Origin: Nitrososphaerota archaeon
Lineage (GTDB): Archaea; Thermoproteota; Nitrososphaeria; Nitrososphaerales; UBA57
NCBI GenBank assembly: GCA_013378385.1
Contig: JACAFS010000034.1
Span: forward strand, 1-10,827
Length of the DNA stretch: 10,827 nt
Reading direction: 5' to 3'
The position numbers and the translations under genes were made by a program. Position 1 is the stretch's first letter. Each line of letters starts with the position of its first letter. The notes below the pieces were generated by a model. It was given only the letters and a program-made list of their open reading frames with translations, searched no databases and had not been told where the DNA came from. Shown one piece after another: positions 2,531 to 8,744 of this stretch.

Positions 2531-3154
2531 TTATATTTGTGAGAGTTTTGACCTTATGAAACCAATTGCTACGAATGCTCCAGCCGTACTCATCAAGATG
2601 TTTTTTGAAAGAGAGAATACCCAGATTCCAACTACTCCAATATCAGATGTAAGAACTGAGATCTCGCTAAATGAAAAGCCTATAGCGAATAGACCGGCAG
2701 TAACGATTGCGGATTCTGCAGCTCCACTTAACATGGAACCAATCACTATCATTTTGTTAGAGATTGCATTTTTTGCATAATCTCCGCGTCGTAACCAGAA
2801 TTCATAGACTAGACCTGCGCCAATGGAACCTGGAAGGTAAAGATAGGAAGCAGGGGCAGGAACCATGAGCAGTAGTAATCCACTGACTATACTGAAGACT
2901 AATGGTCCGTTCTGTGTTCTCAGTTGGGAAGCAATAAGAACCATACAGAATGCACGGAAGAAATGTGCGCCTGAACCTCTCAACAAAGGACCAATTGTTG
3001 CAGAAACAACATAAGATAAGACAAAATATACAGCTGTAAACATTGTAGCGTATGCAATGAGTTTGACTCGTGAAGTTTTTAGACTAGTGGCATTAGAAAA
3101 TAATTCCATAACAAAACTATTCAATATTGTATTCAAACAATCACCATGATTCAA
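2531..3154 (-). CDS. Uncharacterised polytopic membrane protein (about 6 TM; loosely resembles an ECF-transporter S component)
   Basis: The ORF has six hydrophobic segments (e.g. VKLIAYATMFTAVYFVLSYV, GPLVFSIVSGLLLLMV, MIVIGSMLSGAAESAIVTAGLFAIGF). I recognise no diagnostic motif. The track start at 3154 is TTG, and the first ATG is at 3109 (MELFSNATS...). No TATA-like box lies at the usual spacing for either start, so the gene is probably co-transcribed with FTR1, 40 nt upstream. Confidence 0.6.
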   Translation of the reverse strand: MNHGDCLNTILNSFVMELFSNATSLKTSRVKLIAYATMFTAVYFVLSYVVSATIGPLLRGSGAHFFRAFCMVLIASQLRTQNGPLVFSIVSGLLLLMVPAPASYLYLPGSIGAGLVYEFWLRRGDYAKNAISNKMIVIGSMLSGAAESAIVTAGLFAIGFSFSEISVLTSDIGVVGIWVFSLSKNILMSTAGAFVAIGFIRSKLSQI

Positions 3155-3194: not shown

Positions 3195-4076
3195 TCAATA
3201 ACTTGCAAACGTTTTACGGTAGAAACGTCCTGCCCACGCCCAATAGCTAAGATATCCTATAACACGAATCCATTCAGGATTGCCATCATAACCAAGTAGG
3301 GCCTTGAACCAAACGCCTATCGCTCCCTTTTCATGAAGAGGATGTGATTTTTCAGCTGGATTAATGTCCCAGGCATAAGAGAACAAGAAGTTTGTTGGTT
3401 CTCCGTCGGCGTCATAACCAACTCCAGCGTATTCAGCTGCTTCGACTAATTCATGTAGTCCGTAGCCAAATAGACCTGCTGCAAATACTATTAATATTAA
3501 ACTGGTATATTTGAAGAATTTTCCAATATCCAAATTGTAAATTTGTCTTTTAGCTGCAAGTGATAGAACTAATGCAACAACAACTGCAAGAATTGAACCA
3601 ATTATTGTACTACCGATATCGATTGAAAGTAATGGAGCAAGGAAAAGAACTGTCTCTAGTCCTTCTCTGGCCACTGCAACGAATGCGAGGAACACTAAAG
3701 AGTTTGCGGATTGTGAAGTAATGGCAAAGTCCATCTTGGATTCAAGTTCGCCCTTCATTGAACCAGCGTGTTTAGCCATCCAGATAATAACATAAGATAA
3801 TACGAGTGTAGCAGAAATAGAAGCGACTCCTTCGAACATTTTCTCCCAGAATCCCGCTAATTCACCTAGAAGTATTATAATTCCTCCACCTAAAACTAGG
3901 CTCAGTGCTATCGCACCGATAGTACCATAAGCTAGATATTTTTGATATTCTTTATTGTTGGTTTTATCCAAATAAGCCCACATGATACCAACAATCAACG
4001 CAGCCTCAATTGACTCACGGAGTACGACTAGGAATGGCGCTACAAGCGCAGATCCGATTGATATTCCGTCTGTCAT
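3195..4076 (-). CDS. High-affinity iron permease, FTR1/EfeU family
   Basis: 293 aa, about 7 TM. Both hallmark RExxE motifs lie in TM helices: LRESIEAALIVG (res 19-30) and VAREGLETVLFLAP (res 135-148). The conserved C-terminal region LLGYDGNPEWIRVIGYLSYW resembles bacterial EfeU. Confidence 0.9.
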   Translation of the reverse strand: MTDGISIGSALVAPFLVVLRESIEAALIVGIMWAYLDKTNNKEYQKYLAYGTIGAIALSLVLGGGIIILLGELAGFWEKMFEGVASISATLVLSYVIIWMAKHAGSMKGELESKMDFAITSQSANSLVFLAFVAVAREGLETVLFLAPLLSIDIGSTIIGSILAVVVALVLSLAAKRQIYNLDIGKFFKYTSLILIVFAAGLFGYGLHELVEAAEYAGVGYDADGEPTNFLFSYAWDINPAEKSHPLHEKGAIGVWFKALLGYDGNPEWIRVIGYLSYWAWAGRFYRKTFASY

Positions 4077-4097
4077 ACAGCAAGTTAATAACGGACG

Positions 4098-4105
4098 TTA
4101 TATAA
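4098..4105 (-). promoter_or_regulatory. TATA box of the FTR1 operon
   Basis: Palindromic TTATATAA spans -22 to -29 relative to the FTR1 ATG (4076). Confidence 0.5.
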
Positions 4106-4155
4106 GGTTCACGATGTAAATAAAAATATGTTAACAGCGTGAATTAACAACAAAT

Positions 4156-4164
4156 CTATATATC
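4156..4164 (+). promoter_or_regulatory. TATA box of the HTH/erythrin-like regulator gene
   Basis: CTATATATC spans -23 to -31 relative to the ATG at 4187. Confidence 0.5.
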
Positions 4165-4186: not shown

Positions 4187-4915
4187 ATGCAAAAAATGAA
4201 AAATGTTGAACAGATTCTACCTGCAGTTAGATCGTTGTTGGCAAAGGAATTAATCCAGAGTCATAATGTAACAAAGGCAGACGTTTCAAAGATATTGGGA
4301 ATATCTCCTGCTGCGGTAACGCAATACACAACAAACAAGAGGGGAAATTACGCTGATGAACTTGGAAAGAACCGCGAGGTTAGACCCGTAATCGCAAGTC
4401 TTGCTGAGCATTTTTCAAACAAGAAGAAGAAAGAAGGAGAAATGAGGAGGAACATGACGATTATTGAGACTTCGGAAAATATACTTGCCATTATTAACAA
4501 TCAAGGAATCAAGGATAAAGAAAAAAAGATGGATCCTAATACTAGGATTCTGCAGGACAGAGTTGAAGCTGAACTTCATGAGGCAAGAACGAGTTTGAGT
4601 ATGGCAAATAAGATAGAAGACGGTTTTGGAAAACTGCTCTTCAAAGGAATTGCGTCAGACAGTATCCGACATGCAGAGATAGTTTCTCAGGTAATCAGAG
4701 ATCAAGAGACAGTTGGCAGTTTCAGATTAGATAAACAATCAAAGAGATATCTAAAACAGATGATTCAAGAGGAAGAGAATGCCAGTGAACAGTTGATGGT
4801 TAAATTAGTTAAGACAAAACATCCAGCGGTCCGTGCTTTGCTGCAGTCAATCGACCAAGATGAGATGAAGCACAAAAAGATGCTGAGATCTCTCAAAAAG
4901 TATCTAGAAGCCTGA
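4187..4915 (+). CDS. Putative transcriptional regulator: N-terminal helix-turn-helix (COG2522-like) fused to a C-terminal rubrerythrin/ferritin-like four-helix domain
   Basis: 242 aa. The HTH is VTKADVSKILGISPAAVTQYTTNKRG (res 28-53). A Lys-rich linker follows. The C-terminal roughly 125 aa consist of four predicted helices with erythrin-type ligand patterns: VEAELHE (res 126-132), DSIRHAE (158-164, degenerate), QEEENASE (194-201) and DEMKH (225-229, canonical ExxH). Confidence 0.65.
   Translation: MQKMKNVEQILPAVRSLLAKELIQSHNVTKADVSKILGISPAAVTQYTTNKRGNYADELGKNREVRPVIASLAEHFSNKKKKEGEMRRNMTIIETSENILAIINNQGIKDKEKKMDPNTRILQDRVEAELHEARTSLSMANKIEDGFGKLLFKGIASDSIRHAEIVSQVIRDQETVGSFRLDKQSKRYLKQMIQEEENASEQLMVKLVKTKHPAVRALLQSIDQDEMKHKKMLRSLKKYLEA
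4874..4899 (-). terminator. Candidate terminator of the propeller operon, embedded in the 3' end of the convergent regulator gene
   Basis: On the minus strand, just after the TAG stop (4906-4904), there is a T5 run (4899-4895), then the 10-nt palindrome TGAGATCTCA (4884-4893), then a second T5 run (4878-4874). Confidence 0.35.
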
Positions 4916-8688: not shown

Positions 8689-8708
8689 TGAAATATTAAT
8701 AACTTAAT

Positions 8709-8718
8709 AATATATTAA
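8709..8718 (-). promoter_or_regulatory. TATA-like box of the 781-aa propeller gene
   Basis: An AT palindrome AATATATT/TTAATATA spans about -21 to -30 relative to the ATG at 8688, inside the 56-nt gap after the upstream paralog. Confidence 0.45.
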
Positions 8719-8744
8719 TATGATTTTTCTATCAGAAATAATGC

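What the first reader, a model, noticed from the sequence alone, without database searches (positions are those of the whole stretch)
4187..4915. HTH fused to a rubrerythrin-like four-helix domain, divergent from FTR1: candidate new iron/redox-sensing regulator
Seen:
- The N-terminal HTH is ...SKILGISPAAVTQYTTNKRG.
- The C-terminal half has four helices with the erythrin-type ligand layout E / ExxH / E / ExxH, half degenerate: VEAELHE, DSIRHAE (Ser where the first ExxH Glu is expected, Asp one position earlier), QEEENASE and DEMKH (canonical).
- The gene shares a 110-nt divergent promoter region with the FTR1 permease operon and converges on the propeller cluster.

Inference:
- A (di)iron- or oxidant-binding sensor domain controls a DNA-binding domain, acting as a local regulator of iron uptake.
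- This is not Fur, DtxR or any other characterised iron-regulator architecture that I recognise.
Basis: partly seen in the sequence, partly recalled or inferred. Interest (0 to 1): 0.6.

Follow-up and report, generated by a model that had tools for sequence, protein, structure and literature searches.

The report
Archaeal ferritin-like iron-sensing regulator candidate
A small gene next to an iron-import gene in an uncultured marine archaeon encodes a DNA-binding protein fused to a ferritin/rubrerythrin-like metal-site domain, and comparison with about 40 relatives shows an uncharacterised, archaea-wide family that sits beside metal importers behind a conserved set of DNA boxes, so it is probably a new type of iron-responsive gene switch.

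Summary
ORF 4187-4915 encodes a 242-aa protein with an XRE-type HTH and a C-terminal domain that passes Pfam's Rubrerythrin threshold. It lies 110 nt from, and divergent to, an FTR1 permease gene.

The reading is supported by comparative evidence; nothing here is experimental.
- The candidate ligands E129, D158-S159-x-x-H162, E196 and D225-E226-x-x-H229 are invariant (S159 is Cys in 2) in 38 homologues, from marine Thaumarchaeota to Pyrobaculum.
- Homologues sit next to FTR1 (three separate clades), FeoAB, ZIP or ZIP-like genes, Nramp, ZnuA/ABC-3 and ferritin.
- A conserved promoter module recurs: 13-bp palindromes TTmAC-N3-GTkAA, two of them 21-23 bp apart, plus a box over the transporter's TATA. 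The window holds the only perfect pair in its 1-Mb genome.
- No Fur or DtxR was found in this 96 % complete genome.

Best reading: an Fe(II)-responsive repressor of FTR1 and of itself.

Open points:
- Metal identity and the sign of regulation are inferred.
- Fold searches did not rise above the helical background.
- Several relatives flank a phosphonate-type ABC transporter instead of a metal importer.

No paper on the family was found. An earlier report of this scan (e1-715616) described the same family on other DNA.

The parts
4187..4915 (+). Regulator gene, 242 aa: XRE-type HTH, two linker helices, then a four-helix ferritin/rubrerythrin-like sensor domain. The protein contains no Cys.
4244..4342 (+). 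HTH region (res 20-52). The recognition helix carries the motif PAAVTQY; Y47 is invariant in the family.
   Evidence: Pfam HTH_3; alignments
4535..4909 (+). Sensor domain (res 117-241). Candidate ligand codons: E129 4571-4573, D158 4658-4660, S159 4661-4663, H162 4670-4672, E196 4772-4774, D225 4859-4861, E226 4862-4864, H229 4871-4873.
   Evidence: PF02915 above threshold; residues invariant in 38 homologues; aligned to canonical ligand positions of bacterioferritin-like PDB chains and Due Ferri designs
4088..4101 (.). Box U1, ATAAC-GGAC-GTTAT. It overlaps the FTR1 TATA box and lies between the TATA and the FTR1 start.
   Evidence: Conserved in G000, G002, G003 and G004. The same ATAAC-N3/4-GTTAT box sits at the transporter TATA in the f29, ZIP-like and Zip loci.
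4098..4105 (-). Probable TATA box of FTR1 (TTATATAA), centred about 26 nt upstream of the ATG at 4076, which implies a leaderless mRNA.
   Evidence: Read from the sequence; invariant in 5 orthologous spacers; its function is inferred.
4108..4120 (.). Box U2, TTCACGATGTAAA. A 13-bp palindrome abutting the BRE side of the FTR1 TATA.
   Evidence: Invariant in 5 spacers apart from one base; perfect match to TTmAC-N3-GTkAA
4131..4148 (.). Box U3, TTAACAGCGTGAA (4131-4143), plus an extra half-site TTAAC (4144-4148). It lies 23 bp from U2 and ends 7 nt upstream of the regulator's TATA.
   Evidence: GTTAAC-N7-RTTAAC occurs once in the 1-Mb genome, here.
4156..4163 (+). Probable TATA box of the regulator gene (CTATATAT), about 27 nt upstream of the ATG at 4187.
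   Evidence: Read from the sequence; its function is inferred.
3195..4076 (-). FTR1/EfeU-family iron permease, the presumed target gene. Both RExxE motifs are present (RESIE, REGLE).
   Evidence: PF03239 2.1e-47 and NF041756 EfeU 1.3e-53 (below that model's own cut-off of 255 bits); motifs read; conserved divergent partner

Best explanation
The gene encodes a one-component metalloregulator of an uncharacterised, archaea-wide family.

Anatomy: an N-terminal XRE-type helix-turn-helix is joined by two helices to a four-helix ferritin/rubrerythrin-like domain. That domain carries a conserved but half-degenerate di-metal site: E129; D158-S159-x-x-H162; E196; D225-E226-x-x-H229.

DNA binding: the protein, presumably as a dimer, binds 13-bp palindromes TTmAC-N3-GTkAA. 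In the window three boxes fill the 110-nt divergent promoter. U1 lies over the FTR1 TATA box, U2 abuts it on the BRE side, and U3 abuts the regulator's own promoter.

Most likely logic: when cytoplasmic Fe(II) is sufficient, the metal-loaded sensor domain holds the protein on these boxes. That blocks TBP/TFB/RNA-polymerase access, so FTR1 and the regulator gene are repressed. When iron is scarce, the apo-protein leaves and the importer is made. Replacing the first ExxH Glu by Ser may make one metal position weak and exchangeable, as a sensor needs.

Shown here: the domain architecture, invariance of the ligand set, conserved adjacency to metal importers, and a conserved operator module.

Inferred: the metal's identity, co-repressor logic, oligomeric state and the promoter elements.
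For: Architecture:
- PF02915 is above threshold and HTH_3 is present.
- 35 of 53 members match each family.
- Profile hits reach bacterioferritin-like PDB chains and designed di-iron Due Ferri proteins, with the ligand columns aligned.
- Models have pLDDT 92-93 with four helices.

Conservation: the eight candidate site residues are the most conserved positions in 38 homologues spanning the phylum.

Context:
- FTR1 is the divergent neighbour in three separately supported clades.
- FeoA/FeoB are divergent neighbours in three loci.
- Weak-ZIP proteins are divergent neighbours in four loci; Nramp x2, Zip plus cupredoxin, ZnuA/ABC-3, ferritin, and DtxR plus CDF are nearby.
- Within the window's genus, 4 genomes have both the regulator and FTR1 and 4 have neither.

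Operator:
- The boxes are footprinted in 5 orthologous spacers.
- The 13-mer is 79-fold denser in the 250 bp upstream of regulator genes than elsewhere in 459 kb.
- 16 of 22 phased box pairs lie within 300 bp upstream of a regulator gene.
- The same U1/TATA/U2/U3 layout precedes FTR1, ZIP-like, Zip and PhnD-type ABC genes in 52-63 % GC genomes.
- The window has the only perfect pair in its genome.

Genome: no Fur or DtxR hit at 96 % completeness.
Against: - No experiment exists for any member.
- Structure searches do not place the domain above the helical-hairpin background: Z about 9, rmsd 12-20 A to rubrerythrin, sulerythrin and ferritin. I could not measure ligand geometry.
- The 11-residue B-C linker is too short for the canonical ferritin crossover, by my own geometric estimate. 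A monomeric canonical site is therefore doubtful, and a domain-swapped dimer would be needed.
- One canonical ligand is Ser.
- Six sampled loci (L022, L027, L073, L075, L076, L081) flank an ABC transporter whose binding protein passes the NCBIfam phosphate/phosphite/phosphonate model, not a metal model.
- The Pyrobaculum/Thermoproteus clade and family f48 show no metal neighbour and no such boxes.
- ZIP, Nramp and ZnuABC neighbours would fit Mn or Zn as well as Fe.
- The box pattern was derived from part of the same data on which its enrichment was counted.
- The box positions also allow activation.
Confidence: 0.6

Rival explanations
1. The di-iron site is constitutively loaded and acts as a peroxide or oxygen sensor. 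Oxidation, as in rubrerythrin, switches DNA binding and shuts iron import under oxidative stress, a PerR-like logic. Alternatively it integrates iron and O2, as the FBXL5 hemerythrin domain does.
For: The domain's closest named family is rubrerythrin, a peroxidase (and established knowledge). Di-iron carboxylate sites are redox active. Limiting iron import during oxidative stress is a known strategy. The window's organism is an aerobic dark-ocean heterotroph lineage, with PQQ dehydrogenases as described for heterotrophic marine Thaumarchaeota in PMC7300363.
Against: No peroxiredoxin, SOD, catalase or rubrerythrin gene was seen next to any of the 38 regulators; the neighbours are importers and storage genes. 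The family is also present in anaerobes such as Pyrobaculum islandicum and Thermoproteus tenax (anaerobiosis is my own knowledge).
Confidence: 0.15
2. The family senses another divalent metal (Mn or Zn) or a non-metal ligand such as a phosphorus oxyanion. The FTR1 link in this clade would be one of several interchangeable targets.
For: ZIP or ZIP-like, Nramp and ZnuA/ABC-3 neighbours are typical Zn/Mn systems. PhnD-type (TIGR01098) ABC operons carry the same operator layout in family f29. Sulerythrin crystallises with Mn, Ni or mixed metals, judging by the PDB titles.
Against: FTR1 and FeoAB are iron-specific importers and account for 11 of the 38 loci, in four clades. The ligand set is identical in all clades, so a change of specificity is not visible. 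E/H-rich ferritin-like sites are classic Fe sites.
Confidence: 0.12
3. The four-helix domain is only a dimerisation module. The conserved acidic and His residues are structural (salt bridges), and the protein is a constitutive or otherwise-controlled local regulator.
For: Fold searches match generic helical hairpins as well as ferritin-like proteins. One canonical ligand is missing. HTH-only paralogues of 110-140 aa exist widely, including one in this genome.
Against: The invariant residues are exactly the canonical E / xxH / E / ExxH positions, plus a symmetric Asp on helices B and D, across proteins only 22-30 % identical. The rest of the helices vary freely. Neighbours are consistently metal-transport genes.
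Confidence: 0.08
4. It is a Dps-like protective or ferroxidase protein that uses an HTH to coat DNA non-specifically while oxidising Fe(II).
For: Dps is a ferritin-like DNA-binding protein (established knowledge). Source annotations call some members 'ferritin family protein'.
Against: A specific, phylogenetically footprinted operator module lies in the gene's own divergent promoter. The domain is a single four-helix unit with no sign of cage-forming extensions. Gene placement is typical of a local regulator.
Confidence: 0.03

Closest known systems
Fur and DtxR/IdeR/MntR-type metalloregulators (including archaeal MDR1, TroR, Idr, SirR)
   Same: The predicted job is the same: a small dimeric protein whose metal-loaded form binds palindromic boxes over the core promoters of metal-uptake genes and of its own gene. 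It is placed next to FTR1, Feo, ZIP, Nramp or ZnuABC genes.
   Different: There is no sequence relationship: no PF01475, PF01325 or PF02742 hit in the protein. The DNA-binding domain is an XRE/Cro-type HTH, not a winged helix. The sensor is a ferritin-like helical bundle rather than the Fur or DtxR metal-binding and dimerisation domains.
Rubrerythrin / erythrin / sulerythrin / bacterioferritin di-iron four-helix domain (Pfam PF02915, ferritin-like clan)
   Same: The Pfam hit is above threshold. The E...ExxH...E...ExxH spacing on four helices aligns with canonical ligand columns. The C-D hairpin resembles designed Due Ferri proteins.
   Different: The first ExxH Glu is Ser (Cys in two members), and there is an invariant Asp at i-4 of each His. 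There is no rubredoxin domain and no Cys at all. The B-C connection is short, about 11 residues. The domain is fused to a DNA-binding domain. No structural superposition better than 12 A rmsd over the whole domain was obtained.
Hemerythrin-domain iron/oxygen sensors FBXL5 (mammals) and BRUTUS/BTS (plants; PMC12022348)
   Same: The working principle is analogous: a di-iron four-helix bundle whose metal occupancy or redox state reports cellular iron and controls iron-uptake gene expression.
   Different: It is an unrelated fold family (hemerythrin HHE, not ferritin-like) in eukaryotes. The output there is ubiquitin-ligase stability, not direct DNA binding.
XRE/Cro-C1 family one-component regulators (PF01381)
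   Same: The N-terminal HTH has the S/T-x-x-x-(V/I)-(S/T)-x-(Y)-x-x-G-x-R pattern. It binds short palindromes with 3-4 bp centres, in phased arrays.
   Different: HTH_3 is below threshold for this member (18.6 against 23 bits). I know of no XRE protein with a ferritin-like C-terminal sensor that has been characterised (own knowledge, plus literature searches).
Earlier report of this scan, e1-715616 (another genome)
   Same: It describes an FTR1 permease divergently paired with an HTH/ferritin-like protein, repeated 13-bp boxes, and an uncharacterised archaeal family of probable metal-sensing repressors.
   Different: It concerns a different organism and locus. Here the family is extended to a small-genome marine heterotrophic thaumarchaeon. 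This report adds the U1/TATA/U2/U3 layout, FeoAB, ZIP and PhnD-ABC partners, and the absence of Fur and DtxR.

Membership tests
Ferritin-like / Rubrerythrin domain (Pfam PF02915) | Profile match above the curated gathering score | tested here: met
   25.5 bits against a cut-off of 22.8, res 123-236 covering 4-136 of the 137 model positions. 35 of 53 family members match at E<0.01.
Ferritin-like / Rubrerythrin domain (Pfam PF02915) | Six di-iron ligands: E (helix A), ExxH (B), E (C), ExxH (D) | tested here: inconclusive
   Five of the six are present and invariant (E129, H162, E196, E226, H229). The sixth position is Ser159, with an invariant Asp158 next to it that might substitute. Metal binding was not tested.
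Ferritin-like / Rubrerythrin domain (Pfam PF02915) | Four-helix bundle with up-down-down-up topology and a B-C crossover that brings the ligands together | tested here: inconclusive
   Four helices are predicted with pLDDT 93 and pTM 0.83. Foldseek ranks ferritins and sulerythrin first at probability 0.97-0.99, but with E about 0.06 and rmsd 13-20 A. VIA-align gives Z 9.0-9.2 for rubrerythrins, level with unrelated hairpins. The B-C linker is only about 11 residues.
True rubrerythrin | C-terminal rubredoxin-like FeCys4 domain (two CxxC pairs) | tested here: not met
   The protein ends at res 242 straight after helix D and contains no cysteine.
XRE/Cro-C1 HTH (PF01381) | Profile match to HTH_3 | tested here: inconclusive
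   This member scores 18.6 bits, below the cut-off of 23. 35 of 53 relatives match at E<0.01, the best at 7.7e-8, and 21 match HTH_31. PDB profile hits go to XRE-type proteins 3op9 and HigA.
Fur family | PF01475 profile match | tested here: not met
   No hit in the protein and none in the whole genome, while the control genomes ring.
DtxR/IdeR/MntR family | PF01325 or PF02742 profile match | tested here: not met
   No hit in the protein. No PF01325 hit in the genome.
Metal-responsive transcriptional repressor (functional class) | Sequence-specific operator in promoters of metal-uptake genes | tested here: met
   This is computational only. A conserved box module precedes FTR1, ZIP-like, Zip and Feo genes.
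Metal-responsive transcriptional repressor (functional class) | Metal-dependent change of DNA affinity | not testable with these tools
   It needs purified protein, EMSA or footprinting with and without Fe(II).

The most novel reading that the evidence does not exclude
This is a further major family of prokaryotic iron regulators, beside Fur, DtxR, and the Fe-S and haem sensors. It is native to archaea (Thermoproteota including Nitrososphaeria; perhaps Thermoplasmatota). Cytoplasmic Fe(II) would be read by a deliberately weakened di-iron ferritin-like site fused directly to an HTH, possibly formed across a domain-swapped dimer so that metal binding sets the spacing of the two DNA-reading heads. 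That would be convergent with the eukaryotic hemerythrin iron sensors. In small-genome marine Thaumarchaeota lacking Fur and DtxR, it would be the only iron regulator.
Probability: 0.45. Interest if true: 0.8.

Novelty: new variant of a known kind. Interest (0 to 1): 0.66.

Why it matters
How most Thermoproteota and Nitrososphaeria sense iron is not established. This 96 % complete genome shows neither Fur nor DtxR.

If true, this would be a metalloregulator whose sensor is a ferritin-like di-iron domain. It would add a new sensor principle to bacterial and archaeal metal homeostasis, and a prokaryotic parallel to FBXL5 and BRUTUS.

It would also give a predicted operator with which iron regulons of uncultured archaea could be read from sequence. 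Those include abundant dark-ocean heterotrophic Thaumarchaeota living where iron is scarce.

It is directly testable, because cultured Pyrobaculum and Thermoproteus encode family members.

It also flags a 'phosphonate-type' ABC transporter as a possible mis-annotated member of the same regulon.

Tried and rejected
- Shared 8-mer lead (e1-2557859): GTTATTAA upstream of FTR1 and of the 781-aa propeller gene. The FTR1 copy is the left arm of box U1, but the propeller spacer 8689-8744 has no palindromic box. The only 10/10 boxes in the window are at 4108 and 4131. I rejected it as a common operator.

- First operator model: GTTAAC-N7-RTTAAC. It is unique in the genome, but it turned out to be the adjoining arms of neighbouring 13-bp boxes. 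I replaced it.

- Relaxed 13-mer as a genome-wide regulon probe. It gives 69 hits against about 96 in shuffles in this 34 % GC genome, so single boxes are uninformative. Only phased pairs are useful.

- Structure route. The full-length and C-domain models were searched with Foldseek and VIA-align against the PDB. There was no match with E<=0.001, and rubrerythrin, sulerythrin and EncB rows sat at Z about 9 among unrelated hairpins. This neither supports nor refutes a ligand cluster. No multimer prediction was available.

- The search for related loci with the family alignment failed because no stretch was conserved enough. I replaced it by the genome search.

- The 207-aa membrane protein downstream of FTR1 was compared with the 207-aa divergent neighbour in L021. 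They are unrelated; the latter is a weak ZIP match.

- The downstream genes (207-aa membrane protein, ArsC/LMW-PTP) are syntenic only in the closest genome, G004. They are absent after FTR1 in G003 and G010, so they are not counted as parts.

- FeoB_N hits in the own genome are generic GTPases of 252-402 aa open frames, not FeoB.

- Six literature searches found no description of the family or of its named accessions. The library lacks most subscription journals.
Full report
**What is there**

The window is AT-rich (34 % GC genome). It comes from a 1.0-Mb, 96 % complete archaeal genome. Its PQQ-propeller genes and small size fit the heterotrophic marine Thaumarchaeota described in PMC7300363.

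ORF 4187-4915 (+) encodes 242 aa without any cysteine.

Pfam gives Rubrerythrin PF02915 at 25.5 bits (cut-off 22.8) over residues 123-236. It also gives a sub-threshold HTH_3 match over residues 20-52.

The divergent neighbour, 110 nt away, is an FTR1/EfeU permease (3195-4076, minus strand; 2.1e-47) with both RExxE motifs. On the other side, a Vgb-like propeller gene converges and overlaps the regulator gene by 12 nt.

**The family**

Word-indexed and exhaustive HMMER searches find about 57 clusters at E<=1e-10. Most are 230-270 aa and cover both domains. The only names are generic: 'predicted transcriptional regulator/rubrerythrin', 'ferritin family protein', 'hypothetical'.

A profile search of 401 genomes sampled across the phylum finds full-length members (E<1e-48) in about 68 of them. 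They are found in every sampled genome of two families (17/17 and 23/23), in two more families of that sample, and in the window's own genome. A second family of the window's own order was found in the order-level search.

Named members include the following, again with generic names only:
- Pyrobaculum aerophilum AAL63324.1
- P. islandicum ABL88477.1
- Thermoproteus tenax CCC81127.1

The protein-atlas look-up suggests further clusters in Thermoplasmatota.

Six literature searches, including one by accession, found no description.

**The sensor domain**

In a 53-sequence alignment, and in 38 homologues translated from fetched loci (22-87 % identical), the most conserved positions are these:
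- Helix A: E129.
- Helix B: D158, S159 (Cys in two members), H162.
- Helix C: E196.
- Helix D: D225, E226, H229.
- Also R125, A156, R161/K and K228.

Helices B and D carry the same word, D-[S/E]-x-[R/K]-H.

Family profiles hit bacterioferritin-like PDB chains: 9viw at 1.9e-7 with the full-length profile (7.2e-4 with the C-domain profile), and 9qq4. The C-domain profile also hits designed di-iron 'Due Ferri' bundles. In these alignments E129, H162, E196, E226 and H229 fall on the canonical ligand columns, and S159 falls on the first ExxH Glu.

So five of six canonical ligands are kept. The sixth is replaced by Ser, with an invariant Asp beside it. This is the pattern expected of a functional but modified metal site, not of a generic coiled coil.

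**Structure**

AlphaFold2 gives confident models: full length with pLDDT 92.3 and pTM 0.62, and the C-domain alone with pLDDT 93.4 and pTM 0.83. The helices are 117-142, 146-171, 183-200 and 213-241.

- Foldseek ranks ferritins and sulerythrin first (probability 0.97-0.99), but at E about 0.06 and rmsd 13-20 A.
- VIA-align gives Z 9.0-9.2 for rubrerythrins and sulerythrin at rmsd about 13 A, tied with unrelated helical hairpins. The A-B hairpin alone fits the half-ferritin EncB at 2.8 A over 62 residues.

I therefore count the fold evidence as inconclusive.

The B-C linker of about 11 residues is short for the canonical crossover, by my own estimate. A sulerythrin-like domain-swapped dimer, with each metal site built from two chains, is an attractive but untested solution. 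I had no coordinates and no multimer prediction.

**Genomic association**

In the order-level sample, the 2x2 table of full-length regulator against canonical FTR1 is:

| | FTR1 present | FTR1 absent |
|---|---|---|
| Regulator present | 10 | 5 |
| Regulator absent | 5 | 41 |

In 8 genomes the two genes are adjacent and divergent. Within the window's genus, 4 genomes have both and 4 have neither. Kin are not independent, so I give no p-value.

A maximum-likelihood tree of the 38 regulators needs FTR1 adjacency in three separately supported clades.

Other clades have different neighbours:
- FeoA/FeoB, divergent, in 3 loci.
- Weak ZIP/ZupT-like proteins, divergent, in 4 loci.
- Two Nramp genes.
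- Zip plus a cupredoxin.
- ZnuA/ABC-3.
- An ABC importer with a fused double permease and a TOBE ATPase.
- Ferritin.
- DtxR plus CDF.

Unexplained: six loci flank an ABC operon whose binding protein passes NCBIfam's phosphate/phosphite/phosphonate model. The Pyrobaculum/Thermoproteus clade has a 145-aa protein without any family match, and family f48 has a HIT protein.

**The operator**

Alignment of five orthologous spacers shows footprints at ATAAC...GTTATATAA, TTCACG.TGTAAA and TTAACA..GT.AATTAACA, with variable sequence between them.

Across clades the unit is a 13-bp palindrome, TTmAC-N3-GTkAA, often with an AsT centre.

- It occurs 20 times in the 9.5 kb lying within 250 bp upstream of regulator genes, and 12 times in the remaining 449 kb. 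That is a 79-fold difference, found in 16 of 38 loci.
- Pairs of boxes 21-23 bp apart occur 22 times, 16 of them within 300 bp upstream of a regulator gene. One more lies upstream of the Zip gene of L038.

The layout is conserved in front of FTR1, ZIP-like, Zip and PhnD-type ABC genes, including genomes of 52-63 % GC. Reading away from the transporter start it is:
1. A box ATAAC-N3/4-GTTAT overlapping the TATA box.
2. A 13-bp box.
3. 9-10 nt of spacer.
4. A second 13-bp box.
5. The regulator's promoter.

In the window these elements are:

| Element | Coordinates |
|---|---|
| U1 | 4088-4101 |
| FTR1 TATA | 4098-4105 |
| U2 | 4108-4120 |
| U3 | 4131-4143 |
| Extra half-site | 4144-4148 |
| Regulator TATA | 4156-4163 |

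The window carries the only perfect box pair in its genome.

Caveat: I derived the pattern by eye from part of these loci, so the enrichment figures are descriptive. The TATA and BRE assignments and the leaderless starts are read from the sequence, not measured.

**Mechanism**

Boxes on both sides of the FTR1 TATA, and against the regulator's own TATA and BRE, fit repression by occluding TBP/TFB/RNA polymerase, together with autoregulation.

All recurrent partners but ferritin are importers. The simplest logic is therefore the Fur/DtxR one: holo-protein on DNA when metal is plentiful. FTR1 and FeoAB point to Fe(II).

The genome shows no Fur and no DtxR, so this may be its only iron regulator.

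I put 0.6 on 'Fe-responsive local repressor'. Rivals:
- A peroxide/O2 sensor using a loaded di-iron site (0.15).
- Another metal or ligand (0.12).
- Mere dimerisation (0.08).
- A Dps-like role (0.03).

**Comparison and novelty**

The protein works like Fur or DtxR but is a member of neither; both membership tests were run and not met.

It is a member of the ferritin-like/rubrerythrin Pfam family by score. It lacks one ligand, lacks the rubredoxin domain of true rubrerythrins, and lacks demonstrated bundle topology.

In principle it resembles the hemerythrin iron sensors FBXL5 and BRUTUS (PMC12022348).

The architecture is visible in databases but, as far as I could find, uncharacterised. I rate it a new variant of a known kind, the metalloregulator.

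After deriving the boxes I found that an earlier report of this scan (e1-715616) had reached the same family-level conclusion on another genome. The two agree.

Noticed in passing
G000:C30:9286-9321 (locus L094:3287-3322): This is a second phased box pair in the same genome: CTCACTACGTTAA, 10 nt, CTAACACTGTTAA, scoring 9+9 of 10. It has a TATA-like run between it and the start of a 267-aa gene with a weak cupredoxin match. That gene is followed by a 463-aa membrane protein with no family match and preceded by a plastocyanin-type cupredoxin gene. The geometry mirrors the FTR1 promoter. It could be a second regulon member, and perhaps the missing extracytoplasmic partner of FTR1.
   Followed up: partly
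G000:C33:9001-9013 (locus L093:4002-4014): A perfect palindrome, TTAACAGTGTTAA, lies 34 nt upstream of a 114-aa membrane-protein gene that has no family match. It sits between two tandem paralogues, at the end of a contig.
   Followed up: partly
G000:C31:9659-10012 (locus L036:5660-6013, minus strand): This is a sensor-less paralogue: 117 aa, about 50 % identical to residues 1-110 of the regulator, at a contig end. HTH-only relatives of 110-140 aa accompany the full-length gene in many genomes of the phylum, shown by a second match in families f29 and f35. It may be a metal-blind competitor for the same boxes.
   Followed up: partly
Loci L073, L075, L076, L081, L022, L027: An ABC operon whose binding protein passes NCBIfam TIGR01098 (phosphate/phosphite/phosphonate) sits beside the regulator. 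In family f29 it carries the same U1/TATA/U2/U3 promoter layout that precedes FTR1 in the sister genome (L074). Either its substrate is mis-annotated, or the family's signal is not purely iron.
   Followed up: partly
window 2531-3154 (-): The 207-aa six-helix membrane protein after FTR1 has no Pfam or NCBIfam match. It is 27-29 % identical over 171 aa to part of 426-439-aa proteins that lie 1.4-3.7 kb from the regulator homologue in two FTR1-less relatives (G008, G012). It is syntenic after FTR1 only in the closest genome.
   Followed up: partly
whole genome G000: No Fur (PF01475) and no DtxR N-terminal domain (PF01325) was found in the 96 % complete assembly, while the control genomes ring. 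The FeoB_N hits are generic GTPases.
   Followed up: yes
protein P0009 (84 % identical homologue): The closest named homologue sits on a 134-kb contig deposited as 'Chloroflexi bacterium' MAG, although the family and the window's relatives are archaeal. This is probably a mis-binned or mislabelled contig.
   Followed up: no
window 8689-8744: The spacer upstream of the 781-aa PQQ-type propeller gene shares TTAATAAC with box U1 but has no palindromic box. The similarity looks like AT-rich chance.
   Followed up: yes
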